From Naegleria gruberi (lineage: Eukaryota): a stretch of 64,000 nucleotides of DNA. Below, one piece after another: positions 6,423 to 61,022 of the stretch. A program made the position numbers and the translations under genes. The notes below the pieces were generated by a model that was not told the origin of the DNA, did no database searches, and saw nothing but the letters and a program-made list of their open reading frames with translations. The stretch is from the NCBI GenBank assembly GCA_000004985.1, contig GG738864.1; one strand, given 5' to 3'. Each line of letters opens with the position of its first letter. The first letter of the stretch is position 1.

Positions 6423-9400
6423 ATGGATGATAGTAGTGATGATGGAAGTTGCGATATTCCAATACCTCCAGGACCAATTATAGTCCAATCAATTGATGAT
6501 AATCATCTGAATGAAGAGGAAAATAATTCATCAAAAGTAATAGCAAATGTTCCTTCTTCTTCTTCGTCATCATCATCGATATCGGCTGTGGATGAAAATC
6601 AGATAGAAGAATATTCAGAGAATAATAATGGCCATCAAAAAGACTCGGACCCTACCATCCAGCCACCAGAATTACAAGCTTGCTCATCATTGGAAGATTC
6701 ATCCGATGAAGAAGAGGAAGACAACATTCAACCTCCTTTTAGACCTCCACCATCTTTACCTTCTCTGAATGTGCCAAATCTAGTCCCTAATTCTATCCCT
6801 ACCAATTCTACCACTCCAAATATTGTCACACAACCAAAATTTGTTGCAAAGGAAGAAATTGATGAATATACCAGTAGTGATGAATCTGATGACAAAATGA
6901 CAAAAGAAAATCCAGTAAGTATGAAATTAGACAAACTTGTTTCTAATTGACCAAATTTTAGCATGATGTTGTTATGGTACTTTCCCCTCCTCCACAACCA
7001 CCTTCTAATGGCAATAGCCCTGTAAATAATAGACCAAGCATTGTTCCAAAGTTGACCCTCACCAGCTCATCATCGTCTGATAATATTGTTCCAGGTCCTG
7101 TCAATACTACTCCTTCTTTTGAAATTTCTGTTACAACAACACCAAATACTGGAAAACAAAACACAACAAGTACAGCCCGATCATCTAATTCAACCTATTC
7201 TTCACATACTAATGGGTTGGCTGTTCCAAGTGGAGGAAGAACACCAGAAACTAATCTAGCCAAAAGATCACTTAAACTTGGAGATGATTTCGAACAACAG
7301 TCAAAATATCTTTTCCAAGTTAATGAAAAAGGATTTGTTGTCTCAGTAGCTGCGAGTATTTTAATGGAATTCCAACAATATGTCGAAAATGAATTTATTG
7401 AAAGTTCTAAATTAATACCTTATCAAGTACTAGCAGAAATGAAGGAAAAGAAAAAGGAGGATGTTAATTTTACCAAACTCTTTAGTTTTAGAAATTCTGA
7501 AGGGTATCTGAAACACTTGAAATTATTTAAAGAGACAACTTTTGAAAAGAGTTGCCAACTATATTGCCAACTTTTATTGGATTGGCTTCAATCTTCAACC
7601 TCTGAGGTTGCCATTCCTGAATGGTCGTACACAAGATTCACCTCCAGATTAATTCAAAAACTTAATTTATCTGGTGAAGAAAAAACTCACGTTCTTGTTC
7701 AATCCATTAACATTTTAATATGGCTCGTTGTCAGTGATGTATTCTCTATTATATTGAAGAGCTATCATCCAAATATTGTTGACTCTCACGTAACAGAAAA
7801 TATTATGGGCTATTGTTTTGATATTGTCATCTTTGAAACTCATACAAATGCTAAAATTTATACAGTTTGGAAACAAATGCAATCTGTAATTAATGATCAA
7901 TGGGCATTTGTTTTGAGAAGATTGTCAAGAAGAAATTTAACAGAAGTGTGCTCCTTCTTCCTTTCAAGAGTTAATAAGAAGGTTGAAAAAGGGCTCACAA
8001 AATGCTACTTACAATCCCTCAAGTATATAGATATAGACCTTACCGACAGTGCTGGTGCTACACGTGAGCTTTTAGATACCTTGCTCAAACTCTCGGAGCA
8101 TGAAAAGATTGTTAAATCCTCAATAACTTTGAGAAATTGTGCTCTAGCAGTTTTGCAAACTGTCTATTCCCAACTTGATTTTGAATTGGAAGAAAATTGC
8201 AATTTATTGGAAGATTTCAACTTGAAGGTTTATAATTTGGCCAACTCTTTTGAAAAGAGCAAGATTGGTCAAAAAGGATCATCAAAAGGTGAATCTATGA
8301 TTCTCAAATCCTTGATTGTTAAACATGCCACTTTTCAATTCCACAATAATCATGCTTCCAAATTGGCAGATGAAGTTATTGAATTTGCTCTCAAAAAGAA
8401 AGATCAAACTTCCTTGTTAAATCAAGCTCTTTACTCCTTGTGTGTTATTACTAAGGACAAATACAATGTGGATAGAAACATGTCGCCATTTACATTTATT
8501 GGAGGTCCATATAGTAACAAGCTTTTAAAGAACAAACCATTCGTTGACTTGGTGTATTCTGAAACAGACAAGAATATCTCATACTTTACTGAGGACCAAA
8601 CCTCCAAGTCGAAATATACCGAAGTGATGAAGAAAGTTCTTGTCAGTGTTCAAGCATTCTTGCAAAAATTGAACGTCAGTATTGAGGCGGAGCTATTCGA
8701 TACTACTTCCTTCTTTTTAATGCTCTTGATTATGAGAATTGCCTCTCATGACATTGAAAGTGTTTTGGGACCAGATGGAATTGTCAGAAAGTATCTGAGC
8801 CGTGACTTCCAAAAGAATAGTCTCTTCTCTGTAGCTGCTTTCCGAGTATTGAAGGCTATGCAAAACAATGCAAAGGATTCCTACAATGTTGATGTTTTGA
8901 GTTGTGAATCTGAAATAGAATCAATCAAGAGACAGAGCTCATTTACATCACTTTTGAGTGGTTTCAAGGCAGAGGGCTTCTATTTGAAGAAAGTACTAGA
9001 GCACTGTAATGAACGTATGAATGTTTCAATCTTGCAATATGCTGATTTTGACCTTCCAGTTGTAAAACCAGAGAATACTATTACTTTCATTCAAGACGAA
9101 AGTGACAATGATAGCGATATTTATATATTCAAATCAACATCATCAGAAAGACAGGACGATAATTATAGTTTCAACTCAAGTGCTACTAGTGCTAGTACAA
9201 TTTCTGATACTGACCATAATCTTTCTTCTGCATCAGCTAATGTAATGCCTGTTAGCCCTCGTGTCAGAAAATTGACCAAAAAGGGTGCCTCAGAAACTGA
9301 TATTTTCAAACCTCTAATGAGACGTAAGACAGCAACAACTTCTGATTTCAGTAATACTCTGAATCGTTATCCATCAGTTACTAGTTCTTCATCTACACAG

Positions 9401-14633: not shown

Positions 14634-15109
14634 TCAGTTCACGACATAACTTGTCAGAAGGAGGTCGGTAATTTCCTTAAATTCCAATCTATCAATCATC
14701 CTTCTCAGCTCTTTCATAAAATTATCCAAGTCTTCCTTTGATTTGTTAAATCTTGCCTCAACATCCTTTGTAAAGACATCAATATCAATAATTTCCTCCT
14801 CACCAACAACCATTTTCAATTCTAGTTCCTTCCAATAATTCTTTTCATATCTCAATACTTTTAGTAATTTTAATTCTTCCGAGAGCATGTTGACATCCTT
14901 ATCAATTTCTTCCTCAATCAATTTTGTATGAATATTTGTTTGATCGACAAGTTTTTCAATACTATGTAAACGTTCCGATATCCATCAACAAATTGCTAAA
15001 TTACCTACATTTGTACTGTATTTGAATTTCCTTCTTGTTGAGCGTCCATCACTTCCTTCTCCAATCTCAGTTGAATCTTTTTAAATTCCTCCTTAACATA
15101 TAATTTCAT
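14634..15109 (-). CDS. small coiled-coil protein (~142 aa), 2 exons (15109..15009, 14961..14634; 47-nt intron with GTAGGT donor)
   Basis: Track ORF 14634..14921 extends upstream through the intron 14962..15008 to MKLYVKEEFKKIQLRLEKEVMDAQQEGNSNTVQ. It has a heptad-like charge pattern. A further 5' exon around 15162-15235 is possible but I could not resolve the frame. Confidence 0.45.
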
Positions 15110-15311
15110 TTCCTTTTGTTTGGCCACAAGGTTTTTTATTTGTTGCTCCAATACTATATTTGCCTCAATATAAAATCATGATAATCAGCAGAGAGAACCT
15201 ACCCGAAAGCTCAAAATTGGAGAAGATTCTTTCATACATTTTTTTCTTATTAAAAGTTTTGTAGTAAGAGAGTTGAATAAATATGTTGTTATTGTATTAT
15301 TATTTACATTC

Positions 15312-15876
15312 TCAATCCTTCTTAACTTCTTCCGATGATGATTCAATCTTCTTTTCGTCAGCATCTTGTTGTTGTTGGTAGGTTGTGTACTTGTCGGATC
15401 TTCCTAATGATTTGCCAACTGGATACTTGAGAGCATTCTTCTTCATTTTCTGTTTAATAAAATCATCATCAATTATCCAATAATTTAAAATGTATATCAA
15501 TGTTCAAATTAATTAGTAATATATTCAATGTAATATAAATATTATTAATTAAATACTTTAATCAAAAACAAACCTCAAAAGCAACTTCAGGCAAATTAAC
15601 ACCACACAAATCAGACAATCTCAACAAGTAGAATAAACAATCCGATAATTCATCTTGTAAATTTTCCTTCTCTTTATCAGAAAAGTCTCGCTGCACATCT
15701 TCACACATTTGATCCGATTTCCATTGGAAAATTTCAGCCAACTCACCAATCTCACCTACCAATGCGAGAGTTACATTACGAGGGGTGTGATACTTTTTCC
15801 ACTCTCTCTCGTTTATGAAATCTTCGTGTAGTTTTCTCAACTCTTCTAAAGTAATGTTTGGATTAAATGGCGCCAT
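15312..15876 (-). CDS. dCTP pyrophosphatase 1-like (MazG-type all-alpha NTP pyrophosphohydrolase), 2 exons (15876..15574, 15449..15312)
   Basis: Exon 1 (...RNVTLALVGEIGELAEIFQWK...ELSDCLFYLLRLSDLCGVNLPEVAFE) aligns with DCTPP1 (LLALVGEVGELAELFQWK / ELSDVLIYLV). A 124-nt intron with a GTTTGT donor splices to KMKKNALKYPVGKSLGRSDKYTTY, which matches the DCTPP1 C-terminus (KMDINRRRYPAHLARSSSRKYTE). Confidence 0.7.
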
Positions 15877-15898
15877 TTTATTTTTTAAATTTTTAAAA

Positions 15899-17077
15899 AT
15901 GCAAAAAGTGAAACAACATTTATTGGCGGCAAATCAATTCTTTGGTAAAAAGAGGCTTTTTAATGCATCTTTAATTAATTGCTCTGCTTCTTTAAATTAT
16001 TATTTATTTATTAATGATTCAAAGTACCAATATAACAGACAATATTCTAACAACATTGAAAAATCATGTGATTGTCAAATAGAAAAACATTCTCTCTTCG
16101 GAAGGGAAATATTCATTGCACAAGATGTTATTGGGAATGATGAGTTTTCAAAGTATGTGAGTGGAAACAAGTGGAGAAAGTTGCAATTTCTCATCAATCC
16201 AAGTGATGTTGAATATTTAACACAACAAATTAGGGAAATTCATTCGTATGGTTCTTTACAATCGAATGCCATGTTATCGATGGCTTATTTGTGTTTATTG
16301 AATGGATGGAAATTTAAATATCATGTCGACAGGAGTTTGGAATATATTGAGGATCAAGTGAATATTAGAAAGGTTGGGAATTTGTTTGAAACTGTCAAGT
16401 TGAGGGAGAGAGGTTTAGATTTGGAATTTATAGACTCGAGGGATTGTTATGAGAAATTGAAGGACGATTTCACACAGAGGTGTATTTTGAATGAAACTAT
16501 TCAGAATGATGGAATTTTATATGTGAGGGAGGGAGTAGCTCAGAAAGAAGCAGAATTTGGTTACGCTTTACTAGCTAGAGAAATATTTGAAAAGATGGCA
16601 GACAATACTCATTTGAATGTTTTTCTTCCTTCAGGTAAGTTTTTATTGAAATGCTACAAGTGAGACTATGAAATAATTTGAGAAGGAACTGGAACATCTG
16701 CTCTCTTTCTTTGTAAACACTTGAAAAAGTTAGCACCTAACAAATTTACTGTATATACCACAAATTGTGTTGGAAATGAGGAGTATTTAAAAAAGCAATT
16801 TCTTGAATTGGAAAGTGATGTAAGCATGCATCCCAAAATTATTAGCACCCGAAAGAATTATCGTTATGGACAATTATATCCTGAAATTTATCAAATTATT
16901 GAGGAGGTGAAACAACAGACAGGTATTCAATTTGATTACCTTTATGATGGTAAAGGATTATTGACAGTTAAAGAATACCTTGTCTCATCTAAATCACCAC
17001 CACTCTTGTACATTCACTCTGGTGGTCTTATTGGAAATGAAACAATGAGAGAACGTTATCAAACATCTACAAAATAA
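15899..17077 (+). CDS. ACC deaminase / D-cysteine desulfhydrase-family PLP enzyme (~375 aa), 2 exons (15899..16634, 16686..17077)
   Basis: The signature YVSGNKWRKL (GNKxRKL, PLP-Lys) is present. A 51-nt GTAAGT...AAG intron joins ...FLPSG|TGTSALFL, a Gly-rich PLP phosphate loop. The true ATG is at 15899, only ~22 bp from the divergent DCTPP1 start codon. Confidence 0.7.
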
Positions 17078-19497: not shown

Positions 19498-22400
19498 CTA
19501 AGCATGCTTTTCAATTTGAACATGCTCTTCTATTTGATTATCATCAAACACGCCCAAACTATCATAATGCTTGAAGAATTCATTCGTGTACTTGAGACAT
19601 GATGTTTCCACAAGGGAGAGAACACTGCTGTTTCTTGATACATGGTTTGCCTTGTCACTTTCAAGTGTTTTGGTGTGAAAACGTTGCTTCTTGAGTGAGA
19701 ACAATGCCAATTCATAAGGAGATACAACCAATTGGTCTTGTTCATATGCCTCCTCTATTTCAATAAGTGGATAATCTTGTCTATACTCTTTAAGAAATGC
19801 TTGCAAGTTCTTCAAACAATTCGAATCATATCTCATCAATTCCTTATCCAATCTTCTCTTCTCATTGCTTTCATTCTCTTGAATTGATTGAACTGAATAA
19901 TCATCTCTCAATAGAATAAATTTATCACCGCTTGCCATCAACATTAAATGAAGAAAGTTCAATTCTTTCATGTAAATATTCTGTGTAAATTGCCTGTTCA
20001 CACAAAGTTTGAATTCTGGAGATTGTTTCATCAATCGAACAAGTTCAAACCAGCCAATTGAGAAGAGATCAAATTCTGGAGAATCTTGGTTCAGATTTTG
20101 TTCAGATCTTTCAAGGAATAGACATTGAAGTAAAATGTAAATTAGGCACGTGTAAATTTCTCTTCTGATTTGTTGGTCTTCTGTTTCGTGAACATTAGTT
20201 TCATCTTCAGGTGGAAGAAAATCAGAAGAATCAACACTTCTTGGAGAATTACATTCTTCGTTTGATTCCACAGTGGACAATTCAGTTTCTAATAAAGAAA
20301 GTAAACTTTGAGAAATAACTGGAAGTATTCTACATGCCTCATTCTTCAAATTATCCAATTCCAATTTCTCATCTTGCATTATACCAGTATTATCGTCCAA
20401 ATAGTTTAGGATAAATTTGTGAAGAATCATTAAAAGAATAGGAGGTGCATCGTTTTCCATGAAAATTTCACGATAACTGAATTTCCATCTATCAATTTGA
20501 ATATTATCAAGGAATTCATTTGATTTGAAGGAGACATCGAATGGTTTCTTATCGTTTTTAGAAGAAACTTGATCGTCACTATTCGATTCTTCCATTAATT
20601 GACCATCATTACTTGAATAGTGTATTTTCCTGGAAGAAACATTCATCAACTTGAGAATTTGTCTTCCCAATTCTAAATTCCTGTAAAATCTTGAACTTTT
20701 CACAATTGTCATTGGAAGAAGTCTTTCTAATCTATTACAATTATTCAAGCAACTTGTTAGACAGTCATTTTCTAAAAGGAAAGTCAATAAGAAGGAAGAA
20801 TCCTTGGCTATTTGTATACACATTGTTTCTTCATCATTATTCGAAAGACTTTTCAATGAATCGGATAAGAAACAATTCAAATCATAAACAGTACTTTGAT
20901 TCCAATTCAACTTTTCAACCGATTCACTCAAACATAAAATTAAACTAAATGCAAATGAAGTTGAACCCAAGCAATTTTTCAAAATTTCACTTTCCTTTTC
21001 CATTGTTAACTCCACTTTCTTATTCGAAACTTTGTAAACTTCTGGATTAAACATTCTTCCCGCCATTTCCATAAAGAATTCCAACAAGCATTGAATATAA
21101 TCCTTAAACGAATCAAAATGTTTCAATGTCAATCTCAACAATTCAGTCATCACTTGAATTGTGTTAAATTCTGTCAAAATCAAAATTATCAAACTTTGAT
21201 ATTTTGAAAGTTTACAAAGAGTTGTAATGGAGTTTACAATATTACAACTAGTTTCGTGAGAGTTGTATAGGGAAATGGATTTGAAATGTCTTACTTGTGT
21301 TAGAATTTCCAAATCGGATTGAAGTTTTCTTGTGGAAAGTTTTAACATTTCGGCAACATTCAATGGAGAAAGGTCAATAATTTCGTTTGGAGGAAATGAG
21401 TGGATAATCTCAAGATGCTTGTATAATCTTTGATATCCTTTGAATTTGGAACAGTTTAAATCACTGTAGAGTCTTGTCAAAAGTGAAGGAATTTGATATC
21501 CTAAATAGTAAGAACTATTCGAAAGGATATTAGAAAAGAATGGAAAGACTTGCTTACTTACTGTTCGAAAATGATATTCTCTAAATCAACAATTAGTTGG
21601 CTATTGTCAAATTCTTCAATAATTGGAGAAATTAGAGACTTGGATAATTCTTCCAATTTGTTCGAAAGTTTCTTTCTATACGATTCACACTTGTAAATGG
21701 AACACAAAGCAAGACATGAATATCCCATAGTAATAATAGTTTCCAATCTATTCTTAACTGTTTGTTCTTCCATTTTAAGTTGAATATCCTTTCGAATACT
21801 ATGTTTCGTATTACCATCTTTCAAAGCTTGACACCTTTCGAATATTTCTTGATGTTCTTTAGCCTGTTCTTCCAACTGTTCAACTTCCTTTTCTAATAAA
21901 TCCAATTCTCTCAATTCTCTAGAAGGATCTTTCTTGATCGCAAAGAGCTTTCGTTTCGGTGTTGTTTCTCCATGTTTCGTTTTTCGTTGTTTTTCAGTTT
22001 TTGGAGAATTTACCTTCTTTTCCTGATTACTATTTCTAATAGGGCTGTCAAATATTTTACATTCCTCTTCGAAAGAAACTTGTCTCAAATATTCGATTGG
22101 AATTTCACAAACTCCATCGTTATCAAACTTGTTCAATATCAGTTCTTTCAATTCGAATATTTCAGGTTGGTTTCTACTCAACAGTTGACACAATTTTGAA
22201 ACATTTTGCTCGTTTCCATCCAAGCAGAAAACATAGGATAATGGTGGTTTGGAAAAAACCGAAACCATATTCGAATCTTGACTCATACTTTTACAATGAT
22301 CCAATTCCTTCTTTACATTTCTCACCATTTCATGCATTTGGAAGGAAGTCAATAAATTTTCAAAGCTTTCTGAAAATTCATGACCAAATCTTGTGAATGA

Positions 22401-38768: not shown

Positions 38769-39083
38769 TTTTTTCAATACTATTTATTTAATGGATAGTG
38801 CTTTGGTACTGTTGGTGTTAATCCATTGAGATCCACTGAATATTAATTCCCTTCATTACATGTGCTTATCATGTGATCTGCTGGAATATCTCTATTTCCA
38901 TGTTTTCCAATCCAAACAGATTGAAATTCTTCAAAGAGATTTCTTGCTTGGTCAACTAAACCTTGTTCTAATAATTGAATGGCTTGATTGTAGGTTTTCC
39001 ACTTGTCTCCCGATTCTTTCTGTTCCAATTCATACATCCTTAAAAAATATATTGTTAAATCTTGTTAGAATGTAAAACAAAAC

Positions 39084-42795: not shown

Positions 42796-45700
42796 TCAAT
42801 AGTCAAATAAATCATTCAAAGTTTCAAGTATTGACATGATTGGTGGTCGTTTCTCTTCCTCAGCTTTCCAACACTCCTGAATTAATCCACATAGACTGTA
42901 TACTTTGCTAGCTTCCAATGAATCAAAAGTTTGTGGATTATTTCTCTTACACCACTGAAAACATTCTTCCTTAGAATGGAAAGGGATGAGAGGTCTGAGA
43001 TTATCTTGACAAATCTTACTGGTGAGGAAGGGAGTACTTGGGAATTTTCTTTCCTTATCAAGATTTAATCGTTGTAAAGTTCTTGGTTCAGTGTAAGTGT
43101 AGGCATCTTGACATTCGAATAATAATTGCCACATGATAATGCCAAATGCATAAACATCACATGATTTGGCATCTTGAATAGTTCCATTAATCAATTGAGG
43201 GCTCATGAAATTATGTGTACCAATCAAGTGTGTCATTATTGAATTATTCTTATCTGACATTTTGCGTGACAATCCAAAATCACATAATTTACAAATTCCA
43301 TCTTTGGTTAATAAAACATTTCCTGGTTTGAGATCTCTGTGGACAATTGGAGTTGGTAAAGTGTGTAAATACTCAATACCTCTTGCAATACCTAAAAACA
43401 TTTGAATTTTACGATCAAATGTCATTATGACAGTTCCCTTTTCTAACTCATGAATTACATCAACTAGAGATTTGTCCAATCGTTCCATTACTATAAATCC
43501 CTTGTTAGGCATTATTGAAACTCCATAGAAAGATGTAATATTAGGATGTCTCAATTTGACCAGTATTTTGACCTCATTGATAAATTCCTGATCTTGAATG
43601 TCAGAATCCATTTCGAATACTTTTACAGCAACACTAATTCCTTTCCACATACTTTCTATAACCATTCCTTGTCCTCCTTTTCCAAGTCTCTTTCTATTTC
43701 TCAAGTCCAAATCACCAATAGGAATGATAAAATCATTTTGTGGACTAGATTCTGGATCTTGCAGCTCTATTGGTTTGTAATCATCACCAAATAACAATTG
43801 CTTTGATAGAGAATCTGCATCTCCAATAATTTTCTTCTGTTTTCCATATTTTCTGCACAGGAATACCAATAAAGACACCAATAATATCAAAAGTGCTAAA
43901 AAGACAATACTCAAAACGATTGGAACAATTGCTGAAATAACGGAATCATTCTTTTCACAATAATCTCCAGAAGATCCACTTAAACATTTGCAATCATCCA
44001 CGGAATTACACATTCCACGACCACTACATACGTTTGGATCATTCTGTGCTAAGCCATAACACATGGTAAATTGGCATTGGTTTCCTGTATATCTATTCTT
44101 ACTGCATGTACACTTATCAATATCGGTGCAATTTCCTCGACTTTTGGCACCTCCACACGCATCCGGGTTGACCTTTCCATAGCAGGTTGCAGTTTCACAA
44201 TTACTTCCCAAATATTGATCACTATTGCATTTGCAAGAGTTGGATGATTGGCATGTTCCTCTTCCATTACACACGTCCTTATTTGCATTGGTCAATCCAA
44301 AACACACAGGTATATCACATTCCTTTCCAGTAAATCCAGATTGACATTCACATTGATTATATCCTATGCATTTTCCTTTTCCACAAGCATCCCCCTCTGT
44401 TTTTCCATAACAAACAGGCAAACACAATGTGAAATTATCATTCAAAATGTAGCCATTAATTTCACAGTGTGGTGTCAATGTATAAATTGCTGTTCGAGTG
44501 CAATAAATGATTGAGCCAGTAAGTGGGTCGAATTCAATATCTAAGGCATTCTCATTCAGATTTGAAATAGTTTCCACTTCTCTTTCTGATTTGATTAAAC
44601 TAATTTTCCTTCCATATTTGTGAAGGACAATTATTTTGTTATCTAAATTGAATACAGGTGAAAATGGACCCTCCAATCCTGATTCAGCAATTGTTGTAAT
44701 TATTCCATTCTTATTAATTCTTCTAATTCTGTCATTTAACATGTCGCAAAATACTAGATCTCCGAAATCATTAATCAATAGTCCAGTAGGTTTGTTGAGA
44801 GAGGATTTCGTTGCTTGGATGTAGTTCGATCCTCTACCAACATCTCCGTCTCCTGCAAGAGTTGTCAGCATGCCATTTCTGTCAAGTTTTCTAATATTTG
44901 AAAATAAGTCATCTGTGAAATAAACAACATTGAAACTATCCACAACAACAGAATATGGATAAGCAATGCTCAATCTTTCAGTAATATTATCTCTTCCGTA
45001 TCCACCTAAAAATCATTTGATTAGAATCTTTGAGATTCTATGAAAATTTCAACATACCAGAAATGAATGTAATTTCTTTAGTTCTAATTGAATCTTCACC
45101 AGTCATGTTCAATCCTAAAACTCGGTGATTTCTCGAATCTAGAAAATAAAGCATGTCGCCATCCACAAATAAACCTTTAGGGCTGTTCAATTTAATCTTT
45201 GCTGGACTAGTGTCTCTGTTAAATCCAGAAACTCCAACTCCAATTGCTGTTGAAATAAAATGTGAATTCACATTAATTAGTCTAATACGATTATTGAAAG
45301 TATCTGAAACGAAAATTAATTCATTTCCATCGTGATCTGTATAATATTCAGCAAATGTTGGATAGAGAAAGCTGATAAAATTATTAGAAAGACTATGAAA
45401 GAAGCACATGTACTCACCTTGCACTCAGGGAGGAGCCACCATCACCTCCATAACCATCGCTTCTTCCTGCTATTGTTTGAGTATTGGAATTGGCATTGCC
45501 ATTTTGTAAAATTATCTTTCTAATTCTATGATTTGCTAATATAATTAGAATAGTTTGGAAAATTTGAAAACTTACCAGAATCTACAATATACAAATGGGT
45601 AATCTTCTCTGGTTTTTCAACACATAATAAACCATACGGTTGATTGAATGCTGATGCAAGAGGAGCCCCATCAATATATCCTTGATATCCAACACCTGCT

Positions 45701-48493: not shown

Positions 48494-48498
48494 GATAA

Positions 48499-48540: not shown

Positions 48541-48566
48541 AAAGAAAGTCAATTATATATTCCCAA

Positions 48567-49511: not shown

Positions 49512-49736
49512 TTTTTTTTGTTATTGGATGGAATAGTTCAACAAGTGGGTGATAATTTAAACCCTTTCGAATAGTTTTGCATTAGGAACAAACTAAAACA
49601 AGTTGCATGTAAGGTTCCAATTTTGGATAGAAAGCTGATCTCCATTCGAAATCTTTAACTAATTCAATTTGCAATTCATCTTTCAAAAGAATTCATAATC
49701 TTAAGGTATTGTTTCTCAGAAAATCATTAGATTAAG

Positions 49737-51119: not shown

Positions 51120-51159
51120 AGTTGAAAAGAGCTGTCAAAAAAGGAAAATAATTGAAATT

Positions 51160-54100
51160 TTATTTGAAATAATTGAGGGAAAGAAGTTGAGATGCATTTG
51201 GTCTTTGTTTTGAATCTTTTTCTAACATTTGCAATACAATTTCAATTAAATCATTCGAATATTCATTATCATTGGATTGTTTCATTTGTTTTGTTAGAAT
51301 GTTGATTGCGTTTTGTGATTGAATTCCCATCAACAAGTTGCTGATTGATGTTTCCTTGTCTTTTGTCATGATTTGATAAATTGAAACACCCAAAGAGAAA
51401 ATATCAGTATTAAAGGAATAGGAACTGCCAAGGGCAATTTCTGGACTCATATCTGAATGGTTTAGTTTCGTCTAAATAAAAAAATAAACTTACATAAAGG
51501 AGTTCCAGCATAGGATTGACCTTTTGATTCTTGAAACTTTTTAGCCAATCCAAAATCTGCCAAAACAATTTCAATTTTTTCACTTTCCAACTTTTTTATA
51601 AATATATTTGTTGGCTTAATATCTCTATTTTTCCAAAATTGATTTTACAAATTCCTAATATATACTTACCTATGAATAATATGCATCTCCTCATGAACAA
51701 GTTTCAATGCACTCAACATTTGTTTCAATATTTGCTTCAATAATTTCTCACTCACTACTTCGTCGTGTTTCAATAAATTTGTCAAATCTCCACATTCATA
51801 ATAATCCATGTCAATAATCAATAAATTGTCGTTGGTGATGAAATAATCATTCACCTTGATGATATTTGGATGATTGATATGGCTCAATTGGGATGCCTCT
51901 TTCATGATGGTATTCAAATCAGTGAATGATTCAAATCTGATAAGTTTGATTGCTTTCAGTTTGTTTCCATGTTTAATATCTGAAACTTTGAAAACACTTC
52001 CAAATGCTCCTTGTCCAATTCTTACAATATTCGAATATCTTGAGAAGGGATTTTCTTCAGAACTACTGGACGAGCCATTTGATGAAGAAATAATCATTGA
52101 GCTGGTGGAAGGAAATTCATTATCCGAAAGTTCAATATTGTTAGTATTGACCTGAACAATTTCCAATTTCTTATTCTTTCTTTTTCTTGAATTGAAGCAC
52201 ATTACCATAATGACTACTATTACAATTATTGTAAACAAAATTAATAAAGATCCAACAATAGGAATAACAATTGCAACTATTAATACTGATGAGTTGGTCG
52301 ATAATTGTCTTGCAATCTTAGTTATTTCACAATACTTTCCTTCAAAATCATCTTTACATTGACACGTGTCAAAATCCGAACAAATTCCATTTCCATTGCA
52401 AACACTTGAATTAGTTGCCAAAGTTCCATTACAATTCAATAGCATATCACACGTATTATTCCAAGTATTGAAAACATAATTTTCCTCACATTGTGGAATA
52501 ATCTTTCGAATATAAGTTGTTGCATCAATGAAGAAAATTTCACCTGAACTTTCGTCAAATTCAACTTGTTTTGTGAAGGAAGTAAATATTGTATCGGAAC
52601 CCTTTCCATCTCCATTGAATGCAGGAGAGGATGACCTCTTTCCAGCCAAGTCAATCAATAATCCACTCTTTTTCTCGTACATTCGAATAAGATTAGGAGC
52701 GCCTTTACTAGTTACTGTTCCATCTAACAATATAATATCACCATTCTTCTTGACAAAGATAGCAGAGGGGTTATCAATCGAAGATTCTAGTGCTGGTAAT
52801 CTGTCTCCTGAATATCCTTGAGAGAAAGTTCCCACCAAAGTTCTCAAATAAAATTGATTATTCGAAATCTTTTCAATTCTTCTAATGGTTTCCATTGTAC
52901 TTAAATAAAGATTTCCATCAATATAAAAAAGTGAAGTAATTAATCCAGGATACGTTTGAAAATTAACAACTATTCCGTCAGTAGATATTGGATTTGAGGA
53001 ATTGAACGTAAATTCCAGATTTAGTAGTTGAGTTTCCAAGCTGTATCTGTAAATATGCAAGATGTCTGATATTACTAAATCACCATTTGATTCATCTATT
53101 GTAAACCCTGACATTGCATTTGGTGGACAAGGTGAAAGTGTTCCCTTGACATTTGGTACAAAAGCTCCACAAGCACTTCCAATCACTCTTTCATAATTCA
53201 TAGTTTCTGGATCAAGTCTGATAATTCTACATGTTTCCTTAATGTATATCTTGTTATCAAATTTGGAAAGTTTACCAAAAGTTTTTAAACCAAGTATTGA
53301 CATGGTGATTGTCAAATAAGGAAAATCAAAAACTGGAATAGAAGGCAATAAAAACCAGCTAAGTGAAATTGACTTGCCTGTTTTTTCGTCAAACTTTTTT
53401 AAAACTCGATAATTATCAATGAAATAGTTTATCTTTTTAGCCGAATCTCTCATCAACAAAACAGGACTCAATGTTTTAGCTAATGGATTGAGTCCAGCTA
53501 TGGTTTTGATTGTTCCATTTGAAATTTCACTGATATAATTGGAGCAGGAGATGTAAATTCTTGAATCTTCTCTGTTCACTTGAATTGCATAACTTTGTAT
53601 TTGATTGTAATCTAATTTCAGTTTACAAAAATTACTTACGTTGCTGAAGTTTCAATAGGAATGTCATCACCATTGAATCCAGATGTATAAATATTAGTAT
53701 TTGAAATGTTAACCGCATCAAGTCCAACAATTTTCTTTAATGAAAGTGAATCCCATGAATATTCATAAACTTGTGAATAAATATAGAAATAGAAAATTCT
53801 GCCAAATGTAGTAAATCCATTAAATGATATATCTGATATTTTTCTAATACTAGTTGTATAATTTCCATTCTTATAATCAATATATTCATAAATACTGTTA
53901 CCAGAATAATATAACAGAGAATTAGTTCCATTTATGGTTAAATCTGGAATAACACGTATCAAACCTAACCCAGGGATATCAATTTTCAGGATATACAATA
54001 GATTGGATTTGTGAAAAACTGAAAAGGTTTGAACGTAAGTTTGATAATAAATTGTTGAATTCTCATAGGAATCCCCTGTTGCAGTAATGGCACTCGAATA

Positions 54101-55548
54101 ATATTTTGGATCGTGAACAAGTGTCAAATTTTGAGTTTCCATATTGAATACGTATAATCCCAAATTTATACTACCAGTAATCAAAATTTCTCCATTTCCA
54201 AAATGATGTAAAAAGCCAATTGAGAAGAAAATTCGACTAGGTTTGTTGGAGGGGTATTTCAATTCTTTGGAAGAGCCAAATACTGTTGTCATTTTCCCAT
54301 TCGAAACCTTTCGAATTACTAAAGATTGTTCAACAAAATAGAGATCGTTCTTGTATCGAAATGGAAATGTAGTAGCTCCGTAAGTGTACATTTTGAGAGG
54401 TGAAATATTTTCACCATACGGATGATTGATTATTCCACCTGCAAGTGTAGAAACCATCTTGCTTTGTAAATCAATCTTTCGAATACAACTGTTCGATTTA
54501 TCCGCAACCAAAATTGAATTACGAGTCACAATCAAAGAAGAAGGTTCATAAAACTTGATACTAGAGGTATCATATAATTGATTATCACCTTCATATCCAC
54601 TTTCAGATACAGAACTTCCAATAAATAAAAGAGTAGAGGATGATTTTTCCTTTTTCATCTGAATGAAATGATTTGATTGTGAAGAGGTGTAAATTTCACC
54701 TTCATTCGAAACATAAATTCCATATCTGAAAGTAAATATTAAATTTCATCATTATTACTATTCGAAACTTACAAATTAGATTGAGATAATCCTCCATCCA
54801 CAATTCTATAAAATCCATTTTCATCAATTGACTTGACTCTTTCCTCATCTGTGAAATATACAATATCATTCTTTCCATTATTAGAATAAACATATATATT
54901 CTTTGGTGATTTTAAAAGTAATGACTTGGCATCAACTCCATCATAATCTCCATTTAGATAACCACCTCCTCCTAATATGGAAAGTGTTTGAGTGGCAATT
55001 TCATATTTCCAAATTAAGTTATTATTAGTATCTGCAATGTAGGCATTTCCATTCTTTGAAACACTGACACCTTTTGGTTTGTTAAAGGTATGCGAAATGG
55101 AAGAAACCAATTTGGTCGAATACGAAACTATTCGAATCATATCATTCAAAGTATCGGCAATAAACAAATCACCATTCAATGGATTCACTGCCACAGATGT
55201 TGGTGTATTCAGTAGAGTACCAACAGCACTCTGTCCATCTCCATTAAACCCACTCGTTGTAAATCCAGCATAAACTTCCAAAGTTGACCAATTTTGATCA
55301 TAAATTCTATAAATTAAATGTCTTTCAATATCAGAAATATAAATCTCACCATTCAATCCTTCACATAATCCACTCGGTGATAACATGTAAGCAAATTTCG
55401 CATCCACCACATCAAAATTAGTTGTACTTCCTTCAATTGTTTTGGTTGAGTAATATTTCACATTCTTCGATCTTTCCACAGCAGCACATGTGCTGGCCAA
55501 CAAGTTGCTGAGCAGGAGTAGTAGTAGTATTGAAGTGGTGACCTCCAT
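51160..55548 (-). CDS. receptor kinase B (paralog of A/C): signal peptide - NHL propeller repeats - EGF-like modules - TM - Ser/Thr kinase; ~1402 aa, 5 exons (55548..54773, 54725..53640, 53592..51670, 51624..51494, 51452..51160)
   Basis: The signal peptide MEVTTSILLLLLLSNLLASTCAA starts at an internal Met of track ORF 54769..55824. Introns are 47, 47, 45 and 41 nt, all with GTAAGT donors. A kinase exon missed by the ORF track encodes HRDIKPTNIFIKKLESEKIEIVLADFGLAKKFQESKGQSYAGTPLY|MSPEIALG. Other kinase motifs are IGQGAFGSV and AIKLI. The TM helix is LIVAIVIPIVGSLLILFTIIVIVVIMV. EGF-like modules include CNGNGICSDFDTCQCKDDFEGKYC. Confidence 0.8.
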
Positions 55549-56212: not shown

Positions 56213-59200
56213 TTAATTTTTGAGTGAATTTTTCAATAGAGAAAGAATTTCATTAAAGTGGTGAATAGAAGGTCTTTGAGAAGGATTAGTTTCCCATCCC
56301 TTCTTAATTAAATCAAGTAATTGGTAGATTACTGTACTTTCTTGGAGTGAATAGGCCTTTTTCATTTCACACCAAGATTGACAATCTTCCAAAGTTTCGA
56401 ATGGAATGAGTGGACGATGTCCAGATGCAATCTTTGGAAGCAGTTGGCTTAATAAATTTTGATATTGAACTGGTTGTTCAAGATTCAACTTGTTTAATAT
56501 CAATGGATTCGTATAATAATAAGGATCCATAATTTCAAATAGAATTTGCCACATGATTATTGACAAACTATAAATGTCAACAGCAGTTAACAATTGCCTT
56601 TCAATTTCACCAAATGATTCAGGACTATTAATCAAAATCATTAGAAAGATAATAAATAGTAATACTCTACCTCATATAATAAAAAGTTCCAATTTGATTT
56701 GTAATTTGCGTGTTGTTTTGCTTATTCAAGAGTCTGGACAAACCAAAATCACACAACTTGCTCACTCCATGAACATCTTGCAAAATATTGGCAGGTTTCA
56801 AATCTCTGTGCACGATCGTTGGTTTCAGATTGTGTAAATATTCGATTCCTTTGCAGATATCAAGCATAATATCCATCTTTTGACTCAATGACAATTTCAT
56901 TCTATTAGATTGGAGTTCAGCAATAATATTTTCAAGACTTCTCTCCATTTTCTCCATTACAATATATCTCTTGGTTGGAGTAGAAGAAACTCCAAAGAAG
57001 GAAATAATATTTGGATGTCTCAATCTGGAAAGAACTGTTGCTTCAGACCTAAAATCATTTTCATCAATATTCATATTATTCAAATCGAAAACCTTAATAG
57101 CTACTTCAGTTCCAATCCATTGAGATTGATAAACTGATCCATAGCCACCAGAACCAAGTTTCTTCATTTTACCCAAATCCAACTTGTTAATAGAAATGAA
57201 GAATGAATCTGCTTCATCCTTCTTCTTTCCATCATTGTCAATTTCCAGTTCAAGCATGTTATCAGTAACAAATTGATCAGTTTTAATGATCTTTCTCTGA
57301 ACATAATACTTTCTGAATAGACCAATAATAATGAAAAGTGAACCACCAATGCAAAAGACAAGAACTGCAACACCTATTAAAGCACCAATAAGAGCCCACA
57401 GTTCATCAGAATGTTGACATTGTTCACCTGAATAACCAAATTGACAGGTGCATTGATTTGGAAGTGAACAACTGCCTCTTCCATTACAAACGTCTGCCTC
57501 TTTTTCATTCCTTCCAAAACATGTCATTAATTCACATTCTAAACCAGTATATCCAGTATTACAAGAACATTGATTCTTGTCAAGGCAACTTCCTCTTACT
57601 GAACCACCACAAGCCCCGTCAAGAATCTTTCTGAAACAAATTGGCGTTTGACACATTGAGGAAGTATATCCTTCTTTACAAATGCAAGTATTTGGAGCTG
57701 TGCAGTTACCTCTTCCATTTGTGCAAACACTGGAACTATTAGAAGCTTCTCCATAACAAACTGGTATTTCACATTCGAAACCTGTATATCGAGACGAGTC
57801 ATAACATTGACACAAATCTGGTGAAAGACATTCTCCATTATTATTGCAAACATTTCCACTCAACAGTTTGATCTTTCCATAACAAATTGGAAGGCAAGTA
57901 TCATTCTTTGAATAGACATGACCATTCTCACAGAAAGCTTCCAATTTTCTAACATTATTCAATGAAGAATCGATAAAGAATAATACATTTCCTTCATTGT
58001 TAATTGTCATGGAGGTGGGTGAAATACTGAAAGGTTTTGATTTGGTTTGAGATGGAGCAGATCCATCCCCCGCAATTACATCAAATGGATGACTAGCAAT
58101 GGTTGAAATCTTTCTAATAAAATTGTTTTTGCTATCTGAAATAATTGTTTGTCCCTTATAAGAAACAACTGAGGAAGGTGAATTTAAGGAACTTGTTTTT
58201 GGATCAGAGGTTTGAGAGAAGCCAGTGAACCCATTACCTGCTACAGTTTCCAATAATCCTTTCTTGTTAATTTTTCTCACCTTACTAATTCCAGATTCGA
58301 CAAAGATTAATTCACCCTCTTCATTGACATACAATCCTTTAGGTGCTGCAATATCTGATGAAATGGCCAATCTTCCATCCTCGGAGATTCCAAACAATCC
58401 AGTTCCTGCAATAGTTGAAATTACTCCATTTGTGGAAATCTTTCTAATTCTATTCTGAGCTGTTTCACTAACGTACATTTCACCACTCGAGGAGAAGGCA
58501 ACATACGAAGCCTCAACTTGTGAATAAAGAGCCAAGTTATTGTCGCCAATTCCTCCAGCAAATTTCTTTACCCACTTTCCTTCAATTTGACTTTCCAATA
58601 TTCTATTGTTACCTTTTCAAATTTCTTAATAAAATAATTCTAAATACTTTTAACTTACCTGAATCAGCAATAAATAAAATAGATTTGGAATGGTCAAAGA
58701 AGGTACATTGTGGATTATTCAATTTGACATTAGAACCTGTAATGTTTCCTTCGAAATAATTATAACCTGCAAAACCATTACCAACAACTGAATAAGTGGA
58801 CGAAAGGACAGCAAATCTAATTCTATGAGATTGGGAATCAGTAATGTGGATATCAGTTAAAGCAGATCCAACTGAGTTTACACTCGAAACACAAGTTGGT
58901 GTATTGTAAATTGCATTTGGTAAATTAAAATCATCTGTGTAACCCTTAGCTCCACTACCACTATGCGTAGTTACAGTTACTGGATCATTAAAAAGTGGTT
59001 GTAGATCAACATATCTAATACGATTATTTCCAGAGTCTGCAAAATAGATAATCCAATCTGAATTGAGAGAGAATCCCATAGGTGTGTCCAAATGAGTGGA
59101 GAGAGCTGGCCCATCACCATTGAATCCCTTTACACCACTTCCAGCAATGGTTTGAATAATACCAGTACTAAGAGTAATTTGTCTTAATCTATTATTGAAA

Positions 59201-61022
59201 GTATCAGAAAAAAACAATTCATGATAATAATTGACTTGGAGATAGGTTGGAGAATTCAATTGAGCAGTAAGGGCATTAATATTGTCTCCATTGTAACCTT
59301 GTATTCCATTTCCTGCAATGGTTTGGATGATTCCAGATGTTATGTTGACAGCTCTAATTCTATGATTATTGGTATCGGCAACATAGAGCACATTATTATC
59401 CAAATAGATTCCAGTTGGAGAATTAAGCTTGGCCAATGTTGCTAAACCACCATCACCATCAAATCCAGAAGTTCCACATCCAGCAACACCAATTACCACA
59501 CCACTAGTTCTGTGAACCTTAATAATTCTATGATTTCCAGAATCAGAAATGTATACATAACTAGTTGTTGCAAAAATTCCCTTTGGAGAGTTTAGAACTA
59601 GTTGATCTTTGTGTTGCTGTAAAAGCCTGGATGCTGTTATTGGACCTGCAAACATTGTTGAAATGCTTCCATTATATTTGTGAATGAAACCCTTTGATGA
59701 GACAACATATAGATCACTGTTATTGGTTGAGACTGAAACTGGATTGAGAGCAAAAGGTTGATAGGTATCAATGAAATTCAACTCCTTCTCTGGGGCTATC
59801 ATTTCAAGTTTGTTGTTTGCTGAGATTTTTCGTACAGCTCCATAGTCAGAAACGTAAAGGTTTCCACTTTGCTGATCCAGAACTATTCCAGTTGGAGAAT
59901 GAAGTGTTGTCTCACTAGAATTGTATCCATCAATAAATGGACCAATAACAGCTCCATCATAATTAATAAACAAGATCAATGATATTGTTTCATCAATCAT
60001 TGAAATTTTTCTAATTGTTTTCAGTCCAAAATCGCTAACGTACATGAAACCATTATGAATACCAAAATACTGATTTATGGCAATGAATTCAGCATCACTT
60101 GCCTTTCCACCATCTCCAAAAGTGGTTGCTTCCAAACTAGCCTGTTTACCATTTCCAACAAATCTTGAAATATTTCCATTTCTCAAATCCATTTTCCTTA
60201 TTGTCGAAGAAAGCTCTTTAGTATCCACGTATAGCAAGTAATTATCCACTCTCAACAGTCCTGGATGAGTAAAATCTAAATTTTCTACCAACAGCTCTTC
60301 ACCATTATCAATGGTCCATCTACAAAGTGATTTCACATCAATATCTTTAAATTTGAAATAATAAACGACACCATCATCATCCACATAGACATCCAAAACA
60401 TTTGATGATGTTGAAATGTAGGTGCTGACAATACCATTCTCTACTTTTCTAATTGCATCATTATACCCATCTGCAATGTACATAATTCCATCTTTATCAA
60501 TGAACATTGAATAGATCCTAGTGTGTATGAAATGTGTTAGATAAAGAACAAATAATTGAACACATACCCATCAAAGAGAGCTTCTCTTGCATCTCCTCCA
60601 TCACCACTATATCCTGATTCATCTTTGATTCCGACAATTACTGTATAATTAGCCTCAACTTTTTCATTGATAATACTTATGGAAGTGGAATCGGAACAAT
60701 AAACAACACCACTTTTAACATTCACGTATAATGAACAAATGAATGGCTTCTTGAGGAGTGTCATCTTTTTTGATACTGCATCTATTTTAGCAATGAAACT
60801 ATCATCCACGGTATCACATTCAAAATAAATGTGTCCTTCATTAGTAACATGGACAGCTCCTAAACCACTGAATACATTCTGTTTGTGAGGTTTGGTTACA
60901 TCACTCAGTGAGTATTTTGGTGTTGTTTGACCAAAGGATTCCCTTAGTAGGAATTGTGTGAAAAAGCAACAAGCTAACAACACTAAGGCAATGACGGATT
61001 GGAAAGGAAGGTGTTGCTTCAT
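56213..61022 (-). CDS. receptor kinase C (paralog of A/B): signal peptide - NHL propeller repeats - EGF-like modules - TM - Ser/Thr kinase; ~1555 aa, 4 exons (61022..60568, 60517..58659, 58612..56671, 56624..56213)
   Basis: The signal peptide is MKQHLPFQSVIALVLLACCFF. Introns are 50, 46 and 46 nt with GTATGT, GTAAGT and GTAGAG donors. The exon junctions ...EALFDG|IYSMFIDKDG and ...IADSG|GNNRILES fall inside NHL repeats, and ...GTFYYM|SPESFG inside the kinase. NHL consensus examples are YVADTNNHRIRAV, FFSDTFNNRLRQI and ADSGNNRIRYV. EGF-like modules include CNNNGECLSPDLCQCYDSSRYTGFECEIPVCYG. The TM helix is LIGALIGVAVLVFCIGGSLFIIIGLF. Kinase motifs are LGSGGYGSVY, VAIKV, HRDLKPANIL, DFGLS and YMSPE. 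Confidence 0.8.

What the first reader, a model, noticed from the sequence alone, without database searches (positions are those of the whole stretch)
6915..60567. Uniformly tiny introns (40-52 nt) with GTAAGT donors and TCTAAT-like branch motif; the ORF track fragments most spliced genes
Twenty-three of the 25 introns I could place by homology or frame are 40-52 nt; the two in the MazG-like gene are ~124 nt, one of them with a GTTTGT donor. Donors are GTAAGT, GTATGT, GTAGGT or GTGAGT, and acceptors are TAG, CAG or AAG. A TCTAAT or CTAAT motif lies 10-25 nt upstream of the acceptor in roughly half of them, which is fungal-like. Because the introns are short and phase-variable, the six-frame track splits genes into adjacent ORFs or produces misleading 4-nt ATGA overlaps (40376-40379). 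Gene models must be built by splicing.
Basis: seen in the sequence. Interest (0 to 1): 0.5.

Follow-up and report, generated by a model that had tools for sequence, protein, structure and literature searches.

The report
Ordinary short introns in Naegleria gruberi
The window is nuclear DNA of the amoeboflagellate Naegleria gruberi, and the tiny 40-52 nt interruptions are genuine but ordinary spliceosomal introns, about half of which are already in the public gene models.

Summary
A window ORF is 100% identical to a Naegleria gruberi protein on a 441,990-bp contig, so this is a heterolobosean, not a fungus.

I placed 24 introns in 11 genes between 6915 and 60567. Twenty-two are 40-52 nt (median 46), one is 124 nt, and one is unresolved. 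Donors are GTAAGT x14, GTATGT x4, GTAGGT x3, and GTGAGT, GTTTGT and GTAGAG x1 each. Acceptors are TAG 13, CAG 5, AAG 5, GAG 1.

- **Eleven introns** give spliced proteins identical to RefSeq models.
- **Six more** are supported by gap-free homology across the junction.
- **Six** rest on frame and splice signals only.

ORF-joining pairs with a strong donor peak at 40-52 nt: 14 donors against 1 decoy. CTAAY lies 9-26 nt from the acceptor in 9 of 24 introns against about 1 expected.

Corrections:
- The MazG-like gene has one 124-nt intron, not two.
- One kinase intron uses a GTAGAG donor.
- The 4-nt overlap at 40376-40379 is TTGA, not ATGA.

This is a known genome with known introns, so interest is low. 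No RNA evidence was available.

The parts
6915..6961 (+). Intron A1 (47 nt, GTAAGT..TAG, TTCTAAT box) in the giant RGS-domain gene, exons 6423-6914 and 6962-14569
   Evidence: The spliced 2699-aa model is identical to XP_002677880.1 NAEGRDRAFT_79498. The unspliced alternative starting at 6974 is not in the collection.
15450..15573 (-). Intron B1 (124 nt, GTTTGT..CAG) in the MazG-like/dCTP pyrophosphatase gene, exons 15876-15574 and 15449-15310
   Evidence: The spliced protein aligns without a gap across junction residue 101 to mouse/human DCTPP1 (6sqw, 2a3q; E=5e-34). Pfam MazG-like matches residues 42-123 in one stretch. The exact model is not in the collection.
15164..15202 (-). Unresolved first intron of a small coiled-coil gene downstream of the MazG-like gene. 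The GTAGGT donor is at 15202. In-frame acceptors give 39, 57, 90, 111, 114 or 126 nt.
Evidence: No variant matched the collection. The gene may instead start at the ATG near 15105.
14962..15008 (-). Intron B3 (47 nt, GTAGGT..TAG) in the same coiled-coil gene
   Evidence: Frame and signals only: it joins open frames of 55 and 108 codons, and read-through stops 1 nt into the intron.
16635..16685 (+). Intron C1 (51 nt, GTAAGT..AAG) in an ACC-deaminase/D-cysteine-desulfhydrase-like gene, 15815-17077
   Evidence: The alignment to 9jqf_A (E=6e-33) runs across the junction. It has a 1-residue gap with the 48-nt variant (FLPS-E-GTGTS against FLPS-GTGTS), so the 51-nt AAG acceptor fits better.
21515..21561 (-). 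Intron D1 (47 nt, GTAAGT..TAG, TTCTAAT box) in a gene of unknown function, 23759/22910-19498
   Evidence: The annotated N. gruberi protein P0121 maps to 22910-21562 and 21514-19501 with exactly this junction, ENIIFE|HSYYLGY.
25484..25527 (-). Intron E1 (44 nt, GTAGGT..TAG) in the EML-like WD40 gene
   Evidence: The spliced 628-aa model is identical to XP_002677973.1 NAEGRDRAFT_66832.
25073..25118 (-). Intron E2 (46 nt, GTATGT..AAG) in the EML-like WD40 gene
   Evidence: Same exact match as E1. The two ORF pieces carry consecutive parts of the Pfam EML beta-propeller.
33146..33191 (-). Intron F1 (46 nt, GTATGT..TAG, GCTAAT box) in the MBOAT/LPCAT-like gene
   Evidence: The spliced 509-aa model (start MPTNFV) is identical to XP_002677975.1 NAEGRDRAFT_33112. 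The LPCAT3 alignment is contiguous at the junction.
32829..32871 (-). Intron F2 (43 nt, GTAAGT..TAG) in the MBOAT gene
   Evidence: Exact match to the annotation. The LPCAT3 alignment spans the junction with a 1-residue gap there. Pfam MBOAT matches residues 163-452 in one stretch, 123 bits against 32 and 34 bits for the separate ORFs.
32401..32446 (-). Intron F3 (46 nt, GTAAGT..TAG) in the MBOAT gene
32203..32250 (-). Intron F4 (48 nt, GTAAGT..CAG) in the MBOAT gene
40343..40386 (-). Intron G1 (44 nt, GTAAGT..TAG) in a membrane protein gene of unknown function. It contains the 4-nt ORF overlap at 40376-40379 (TTGA).
   Evidence: An alignment with 9 full-length family homologues has no gap at the junction...IA|NSF... 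Sequence.
39039..39087 (-). Intron G2 (49 nt, GTAAGT..AAG, TTCTAAC box) in the same gene
   Evidence: The junction falls inside the motif DEW|MYELxxKE, which is conserved in 7 of 9 homologues. The other two end as if they read through an intron at this point.
45536..45575 (-). Intron H1 (40 nt, GTAAGT..TAG, TTCTAAT box) in NHL-EGF-kinase receptor gene H, 47577-42796
   Evidence: Frame and signals. By my reading of the sequences, the junction restores an NHL repeat core, YIVDS|ANHRIRKI, with the same spacing as in paralogue K. The exact model is not in the collection.
45372..45417 (-). Intron H2 (46 nt, GTGAGT..CAG, TTCTAAT box) in gene H, following a 118-nt exon
   Evidence: Frame and signals. 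By eye, the spacing GDGGSSLSAS|FLYP matches the NHL repeats of K.
45006..45057 (-). Intron H3 (52 nt, GTATGT..TAG, TTCTAAT box) in gene H
   Evidence: Frame and signals. With H1 and H2 it gives a single 1547-aa frame with NHL, EGF and kinase domains (Pfam) and, by my reading of the sequence, an N-terminal signal peptide and a transmembrane segment.
54726..54772 (-). Intron J1 (47 nt, GTAAGT..CAG) in receptor gene J, about 55560-51160
   Evidence: Frame and signals only.
53593..53639 (-). Intron J2 (47 nt, GTAAGT..AAG) in gene J
   Evidence: Frame and signals only.
51625..51669 (-). Intron J3 (45 nt, GTAAGT..TAG) in the kinase domain of gene J
   Evidence: The junction restores IIH|RDIKPTN, the catalytic HRD loop. 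Pfam Pkinase then matches 1-263 of 263 in one stretch, 195 bits, against split fragments before splicing.
51453..51493 (-). Intron J4 (41 nt, GTAAGT..CAG) in the kinase domain of gene J
   Evidence: The junction restores GTPLY|MSPE.
60518..60567 (-). Intron K1 (50 nt, GTATGT..TAG, TCTAAC box) in receptor gene K, 61022-56213
   Evidence: The spliced 1555-aa model is identical to XP_002677980.1 NAEGRDRAFT_66846.
58613..58658 (-). Intron K2 (46 nt, GTAAGT..AAG) in gene K
56625..56670 (-). Intron K3 (46 nt, GTAGAG..TAG, TTCTAAT box) in the kinase domain of gene K
   Evidence: The junction restores GTFYYM|SPE. The 73-nt GTTTGT alternative (56671-56743) would delete the activation loop and is rejected.

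Best explanation
The window is nuclear DNA of Naegleria gruberi. The short interruptions are conventional U2-type GT-AG spliceosomal introns near the lower size limit for splicing (about 40-52 nt).

Their likely mechanism is intron definition, which is inferred and not shown here. The GUAAGU-type 5' splice site would pair with the 5' end of U1 snRNA. A CUAAY branch box, where present, would pair with U2 snRNA 9-26 nt upstream of a YAG/AAG acceptor. There is no long polypyrimidine tract, only A/T-rich sequence.

Removing the introns restores single long reading frames and intact protein domains. Nearly every intron carries an in-frame stop or is not a multiple of 3. An unspliced transcript would therefore be truncated, and a prokaryote-style ORF caller splits each gene into pieces.
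For: Organism: searches give 100% identity to N. gruberi RefSeq proteins on a 441,990-bp contig.

Eleven introns reproduce annotated N. gruberi proteins residue for residue:
- A1
- D1
- E1, E2, K1, K2, K3
- F1-F4

Six more restore gap-free homology across the junction:
- B1 to DCTPP1
- C1 to 9jqf
- G1 and G2 to nine family homologues
- J3 and J4 to a full Pkinase profile, 1-263 of 263

For F1-F4 there is additional domain support: Pfam MBOAT rises from 32 and 34 bits in the fragments to 123 bits in one stretch after splicing.

Length peak: 14 donors against 1 decoy at 40-52 nt, with almost none in the flanking bins.

Signals:
- GT and AG are invariant. Position +3 is A in 22 of 24 introns, and +5 G and +6 T in 23 of 24.
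- CTAAY is enriched about nine-fold at 9-26 nt from the 3' end.
- Intron GC is 23.6% against 34.4% in exons.
- 22 of 24 introns have an in-frame stop inside the intron, and 20 of 24 are not multiples of 3.

The published genome description gives 1.7 exons per gene (PMC8296547), consistent with 24 introns among about 30 genes (my count of ORFs, not a tool result) in this window.
Against: - No RNA evidence (EST, RNA-seq or spliced contig) could be reached with these tools.
- The annotated models were themselves built partly from frame and signal logic, so a match to the annotation shows that the introns are known, not that they are spliced.
- Six introns (H1-H3, J1, J2, B3) rest on frame, signals and repeat spacing only.
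- My models for B, B2, C, G, H and J are not found as exact sequences in the protein collection. The public models therefore differ somewhere, in the start codon or at another junction.
- About 60% of the introns have no recognisable branch box.
- The published mean intron length (203 bp) is far above the 46-nt median seen here.
Confidence: 0.95

Rival explanations
1. The window comes from a fungus with short introns (such as Pneumocystis, Schizosaccharomyces or a mucoromycete). This is what the reader's 'fungal-like' branch motif and the Zn(2)Cys(6) domain hit would suggest.
For: Low GC (about 34%), intron length near 46 nt, a CTAAT/CTAAC box, and a weak Pfam Zn_clus hit (E=5e-05).
Against: Five window-encoded proteins are 100% identical to N. 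gruberi RefSeq entries. The next-best hits to the serine racemase are N. lovaniensis (75%), N. fowleri (69%) and Willaertia (59%).
Confidence: 0.01
2. The frame breaks are not introns. They are frameshift errors in the assembly or decayed pseudogenes, and the GT..AG ends are coincidental.
For: No transcript evidence was obtained here. Six junctions have only frame support.
Against: - Errors or decay would not give 22 segments of 40-52 nt, all bounded by GT..AG.
- 21 of 24 donors are GT[AG][ATG]GT, against a decoy rate of 1.
- The CTAAY box is enriched at a fixed distance from the acceptor.
- Precise removal restores exact domain continuity.
- Independent ENA/Logan contigs carry ORF fragments of the same lengths as the window's ORF pieces, in the same 90%-identity clusters.
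Confidence: 0.01
3. Only some of the 24 are constitutive introns. Several of the frame-only ones (H1-H3, J1, J2, B3, the B2 first intron) are wrongly placed, use a different acceptor, or are often retained.
For: - Models B, B2, C, G, H and J are not exact matches to any stored protein.
- The first intron of B2 has six in-frame acceptors.
- C1 needed correction from 48 to 51 nt.
- Intron retention is reported as the dominant alternative-splicing mode in non-animal eukaryotes, N. gruberi included (PMC6142364).
Against: All three H introns carry a TTCTAAT box and consensus donors. H and J become single frames of about 1500 aa with the same architecture as the annotated paralogue K.
Confidence: 0.3

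Closest known systems
Annotated spliceosomal introns of the Naegleria gruberi NEG-M genome (JGI/RefSeq models; Fritz-Laylin et al. 2010, cited from PMC3488318 and PMC8296547)
   Same: Same organism and same locus. Eleven of the 24 introns give proteins identical to XP_002677880.1, XP_002677973.1, XP_002677975.1, XP_002677980.1 and P0121.
   Different: Nothing in kind. The published summary statistic (mean intron 203 bp) does not convey the tight peak near 46 nt seen in this window. Six of my gene models differ somewhere from the stored proteins.
Short-intron, intron-definition systems in fungi (S. pombe, Pneumocystis, S. cerevisiae with its UACUAAC branch site)
   Same: GTAAGT/GTATGT donors, a CTAAC/CTAAT box 10-25 nt before a YAG acceptor, a length mode of about 40-50 nt in S. 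pombe and Pneumocystis, and no long polypyrimidine tract. The fungal features are from general knowledge and were not tested here.
   Different: The lineage is unrelated (Heterolobosea, Discoba). Only about 40% of these introns have the box. AAG acceptors are common (5 of 24).
Tiny introns of ciliates and nucleomorphs (Paramecium about 25 nt, Bigelowiella nucleomorph 18-21 nt)
   Same: A narrow length distribution near a lower limit. In-frame stops or non-3n lengths make retention detectable. The comparison is from general knowledge.
   Different: The Naegleria introns are about twice as long and have ordinary extended 5' splice-site consensus sequences.

Membership tests
U2-type (major) GT-AG spliceosomal introns | GT at the 5' end and AG at the 3' end | tested here: met
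   24 of 24.
U2-type (major) GT-AG spliceosomal introns | Extended 5' splice site complementary to U1 snRNA (GTRAGT-like) | tested here: met
   +3 is A in 22 of 24, +5 G in 23 of 24, +6 T in 23 of 24. GTAAGT occurs in 14 of 24. The U1 sequence of Naegleria itself was not examined.
U2-type (major) GT-AG spliceosomal introns | Branch-site motif (yUnAy / CTAAY) a short distance upstream of the acceptor | tested here: inconclusive
   CTAAY lies 9-26 nt from the 3' end in 9 of 24 introns against 0.99 expected (P<0.0005). The other 15 have no motif enriched above background. Branch points were not mapped.
U2-type (major) GT-AG spliceosomal introns | Precise removal restores the reading frame and protein homology | tested here: met
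   Eleven introns match annotated proteins exactly. Six more restore gap-free homology. All 24 join open frames.
U2-type (major) GT-AG spliceosomal introns | Absence from the mature mRNA | not testable with these tools
   No N. gruberi transcript data were reachable. The look-up of encoding contigs has no record for this genome. The ENA/Logan members are unspliced ORF fragments.
U12-type (minor) introns | [AG]TATCCTT donor and TCCTTAAC branch site | tested here: not met
   No donor is GTATCC or ATATCC.
   100% identity to N. gruberi proteins. The nearest relatives are other Naegleria species and Willaertia.

The most novel reading that the evidence does not exclude
Genome-wide, N. gruberi introns might form a sharply size-constrained class (about 46 +/- 3 nt) made of two populations. 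About 40% would carry a strict yeast-like TTCTAAY branch box, and about 60% would have no recognisable branch motif, which would imply two modes of branch-site selection in a deep-branching eukaryote. The published mean of 203 bp would then be largely a product of a tail of long or mis-modelled introns. I found no paper in the held library that describes the length mode or the branch-site motif for Naegleria.
Probability: 0.25. Interest if true: 0.25.

Novelty: already known. Interest (0 to 1): 0.1.

Why it matters
The practical point is that this window must be annotated with a eukaryotic, splice-aware gene finder.

Prokaryote-style ORF calling splits 11 genes into 2-5 pieces each. Those pieces already exist as separate 'proteins' in public metagenome-derived collections, and some even serve as cluster representatives. 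That can mislead homology searches.

Biologically, the introns are typical of a compact protist genome and raise no new question. The tight 40-52 nt length window and the partial CTAAY box could help tune intron models when Naegleria genomes are re-annotated.

Tried and rejected
1. The look-up of encoding contigs with a window ORF and with the annotated N. gruberi protein found no record. The annotated neighbourhood could not be fetched.
2. A concatenated query of junction-flanking segments in the search for homologous proteins returned only one Naegleria protein, gene D.
3. The full spliced H protein in the search for homologous proteins returned only bacterial NHL-repeat proteins. The annotated versions of H and J were therefore not recovered.
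4. Exact look-ups failed for B (spliced and unspliced), B2 (four variants), C (six start/acceptor variants), G (two variants), H (three variants) and J (two starts).
5. The 73-nt GTTTGT candidate for K3 (56671-56743) was rejected because it would delete the kinase activation loop. The true intron is 56625-56670 with a GTAGAG donor.
6. The 48-nt variant of G1 (40339-40386) was rejected because it shifts the frame and gives 32 stops.
7. The 48-nt variant of C1 was rejected in favour of 51 nt.
8. The candidate intron 48126-48166 (or 48113-48166) has no ATG in its upstream frame (by my hand translation of the sequence) and no Pfam support. It is left unsupported.
9. The GTAAGT hexamers at 26620(+) and 27067(-) are the ends of an inverted-repeat element, not splice donors.
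10. A spliced protein cannot be handed to the search of protein representatives. The exon-2 translation was used instead.
11. The literature search found no published length histogram or branch-site analysis for Naegleria introns. The 2010 genome paper is not held.
12. Rfam found only one tRNA in the window and no snRNA.


Full report
**Identity of the window**

The window has about 34% GC throughout and is densely packed with ORFs on both strands. Pfam domains on these ORFs are eukaryotic. They include an HCO3 transporter, an RGS domain, leishmanolysin, an EML-type WD40 propeller, MBOAT, DUF4116, and three receptor-like genes with NHL, EGF and kinase domains.

The ORF at 33858-35174 is 100% identical to a Naegleria gruberi predicted protein (serine racemase) on a 441,990-bp contig. 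The next-best hits are N. lovaniensis (75%), N. fowleri (69%) and Willaertia magna (59%). Four more proteins encoded in the window are residue-for-residue identical to N. gruberi RefSeq entries. The window is therefore N. gruberi nuclear DNA, not fungal DNA.

**Finding the introns independently**

I scanned both strands for GT[AGT][AGT]GT donors with an open frame upstream, paired with AG acceptors 30-160 nt downstream that continue an open frame, where read-through meets a stop. I then read the sequence at each candidate.

This gave 24 introns in 11 genes between 6915 and 60567.

One intron needed a hand correction. In kinase gene K, the scan offered a 73-nt GTTTGT candidate that would delete the DFG...APE activation loop. 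Reading the sequence shows a 46-nt intron at 56625-56670 with a GTAGAG donor and a TTCTAAT box, which restores GTFYYM|SPE.

**Is it more than chance?**

I applied strict criteria: at least 100 open codons upstream, at least 40 downstream, and a stop inside the intron.
- Strong-donor/AG pairs of 40-52 nt occur at 14 donors. A reversed-motif decoy (TGxxTG..GA) gives 1.
- The flanking length bins hold 0 (28-39 nt) and 1 (53-65 nt).
- Fourteen of the 32 GTAAGT hexamers in the window are at proposed donors.
- Most of the remaining 18 are on the antisense strand of genes, and two are the ends of an inverted-repeat element.

**Verification against known proteins**

Spliced, full-length translations were looked up by exact sequence.
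- Model A (2699 aa, intron A1) equals XP_002677880.1.
- Model E (628 aa, introns E1 and E2) equals XP_002677973.1.
- Model K (1555 aa, introns K1-K3, including the GTAGAG donor) equals XP_002677980.1.
- Model F, started at its third in-frame ATG (509 aa, introns F1-F4), equals XP_002677975.1.
- The annotated protein P0121 maps to the window with exactly my D1 junction.

That makes 11 introns already in the public annotation.

**Verification by homology**

Six further introns are supported by homology that runs across the junction.
- **B1.** The spliced MazG-like protein aligns to mouse and human dCTP pyrophosphatase 1 from residue 4 to 127, with no gap at junction residue 101.
- **C1.** The spliced protein matches an ACC-deaminase/D-cysteine-desulfhydrase structure (9jqf, E=6e-33). 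A one-residue gap exactly at the junction shows that the 51-nt AAG acceptor is right and the 48-nt GAG acceptor is not.
- **G1 and G2.** An HMMER search with the exon-2 translation found a family of proteins of roughly 770-870 aa. In an alignment of nine of them, both junctions are gap-free. G2 falls inside the conserved DEW|MYELxxKE motif.
- **J3 and J4.** Splicing restores the HRD catalytic loop and the GTxxYMSPE segment. It gives a Pkinase match covering 1-263 of 263 profile positions in one stretch.

For the F introns, which already match the annotation exactly, the Pfam MBOAT score adds support: it rises from 32 and 34 bits on separate ORFs to 123 bits in one stretch, and the LPCAT3 alignment is continuous across F1-F3 apart from a 1-residue gap at F2.

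**Introns that rest on frame and signals**

Six introns have weaker support: H1-H3, J1, J2 and B3.
- All three H introns have consensus donors and a TTCTAAT box.
- By my reading of the sequences, H1 and H2 restore NHL repeat cores (YIVDS|ANHRIRKI and GDGGSSLSAS|FLYP) with the same spacing as in the annotated paralogue K.
- With these introns, H and J each become a single frame of about 1500 aa with the architecture of K.
- My exact H and J models are nonetheless not in the collection. The public models must differ somewhere.

**Properties of the set**

- **Lengths:** 39-52 nt (median 46) plus one of 124 nt. Twenty-two are 40-52 nt.
- **Donors:** GTAAGT 14, GTATGT 4, GTAGGT 3, and GTGAGT, GTTTGT and GTAGAG 1 each.
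- **Acceptors:** TAG 13, CAG 5, AAG 5, GAG 1.
- **Phases 0/1/2:** 4, 9 and 11.
- **Composition:** intron GC is 23.6% against 34.4% for the exons.
- **Retention signals:** 22 of 24 have an in-frame stop inside the intron, and 20 of 24 are not a multiple of 3.
- There is no polypyrimidine tract. The last 12 nt are simply A/T-rich.

**The branch motif**

CTAA[TC], with its branch A 9-26 nt from the 3' end, occurs in 9 of 24 introns against 0.99 expected from dinucleotide shuffles. None of 2000 shuffles reaches 9. The longer TTCTAA[TC] occurs in 7 of 24 against 0.26 expected. TTAAT alone is not enriched.

The motif is real but is present in about 40% of introns, not half. It is the generic eukaryotic branch consensus and is not a fungal marker.

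**Corrections to the finding**

1. The MazG-like gene (15876-15310, minus strand) has one intron, B1 (124 nt, GTTTGT donor). After it, the frame runs 46 codons to a TGA at 15310-15312, and the DCTPP1 homology ends there.
This is my inference.
   - That donor lies downstream of the MazG stop, in a separate small coiled-coil gene.
   - It has six in-frame acceptors (39, 57, 90, 111, 114 and 126 nt), and no variant matched a stored protein. It stays unresolved.
2. The overlap at 40376-40379 reads TTGA (a TTG start called by the ORF tool over a TGA stop), not ATGA. Both codons lie inside intron G1.
3. The candidate at 48126-48166 has no ATG in its upstream frame (by my hand translation of the sequence) and no domain support.

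**The 'ORF track' claim**

The claim is true and has a public counterpart. In the 90%-identity protein clusters, the annotated N. gruberi proteins E, K and F sit with ORF fragments called on ENA/Logan contigs. These have 94 and 129 aa for E; 161, 633 and 643 aa for K; and 111 aa for F. They correspond to the un-spliced ORF pieces of this window, and some are the cluster representatives.

**Mechanism and comparison**

The features fit conventional U2-type splicing by intron definition. They include a strong U1-complementary donor, a short fixed span, a U2-complementary branch box where present, and a YAG/AAG acceptor. These steps are inferred from sequence and were not shown here. No donor is of the U12 type.

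The published N. gruberi statistics are 1.7 exons per gene and a mean intron length of 203 bp (PMC8296547). The density agrees with this window. The mean does not, which probably reflects a tail of long or mis-modelled introns. I found no paper in the held library that reports the length mode or a branch-site motif for Naegleria.

**Verdict**

The feature is ordinary and already known, since this is a published, annotated genome. Interest is low. RNA-seq junction mapping remains the decisive test for the six frame-only introns and the unresolved one.

Noticed in passing
window 26616-27071: A 456-bp element lies between two convergent genes. It is bounded by 42-nt terminal inverted repeats (26616-26657 and 27030-27071, 95% complementary) and has no ORF of note, so it looks like a miniature inverted-repeat transposable element. 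Its ends contain GTAAGT hexamers that mimic splice donors. There is no other copy in the window.
   Followed up: partly
window 48422-48493 (+): A tRNA-Glu (anticodon TTC) found by both ARAGORN and Rfam (67 bits). It is the only RNA family hit in the window.
   Followed up: yes
window 51453-51493 and 56625-56670 (-): Paralogous receptor kinases J and K each have an intron in the same GTxxYMSPE segment. The two positions are 7 nt apart (phase 1 in the Tyr codon against phase 2 in the Ser codon), and paralogue H has no intron there. This could be intron sliding or independent gain; it was not resolved.
   Followed up: no
window 42796-61022 (-), and 61775-62800 (+): Three paralogous receptor-like genes (H, J, K) lie in tandem. 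Each has a signal peptide and transmembrane segment (by my reading of the sequences) with NHL repeats, EGF repeats and a protein kinase domain (Pfam), and is about 1500 aa. A further ORF with a weak NHL hit follows. Gene J has no ATG at the start of its first ORF. A signal-peptide-like segment (MEVTTSILLLLLLSNLLASTCAAV) about 95 codons in is the likely true start, but that model is not in the collection.
   Followed up: partly
proteins P0277 and P0264 (homologues of gene G): Two public homologues end abruptly right at the conserved DEW motif (..MDEWMVSI and ..MDEVCTRL..). The 'VS' in the first is what a read-through GTAAGT donor would encode. This suggests the same intron position exists in paralogues or orthologues and was missed by their gene callers.
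   Followed up: no
window 22910-23759 (-) and 33858-34070 (+): Annotated N. gruberi proteins start well inside longer open frames. Gene D is annotated from 22910, although the frame with an ATG opens at 23759. The serine racemase is annotated at 368 aa against a 439-aa ORF. These are possible start-codon choices to revisit.
   Followed up: no
clusters of P0129, P0132 and P0398: ENA/Logan contigs of 2.6-5.3 kb carry prokaryote-style gene calls that match the un-spliced ORF pieces of window genes E, K and F. For E, K and F such a fragment is the representative of the 90% cluster. This probably explains why word-based homology searches failed to return the full Naegleria proteins.
   Followed up: partly
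window 2-728 (-): Three consecutive minus-strand ORFs at the left edge (483-728, 157-444, 2-313) could be one spliced gene. It would have a longer intron of 122-140 nt with a GTGTGT donor at 504. This lies outside the finding's span and was not examined.
   Followed up: no
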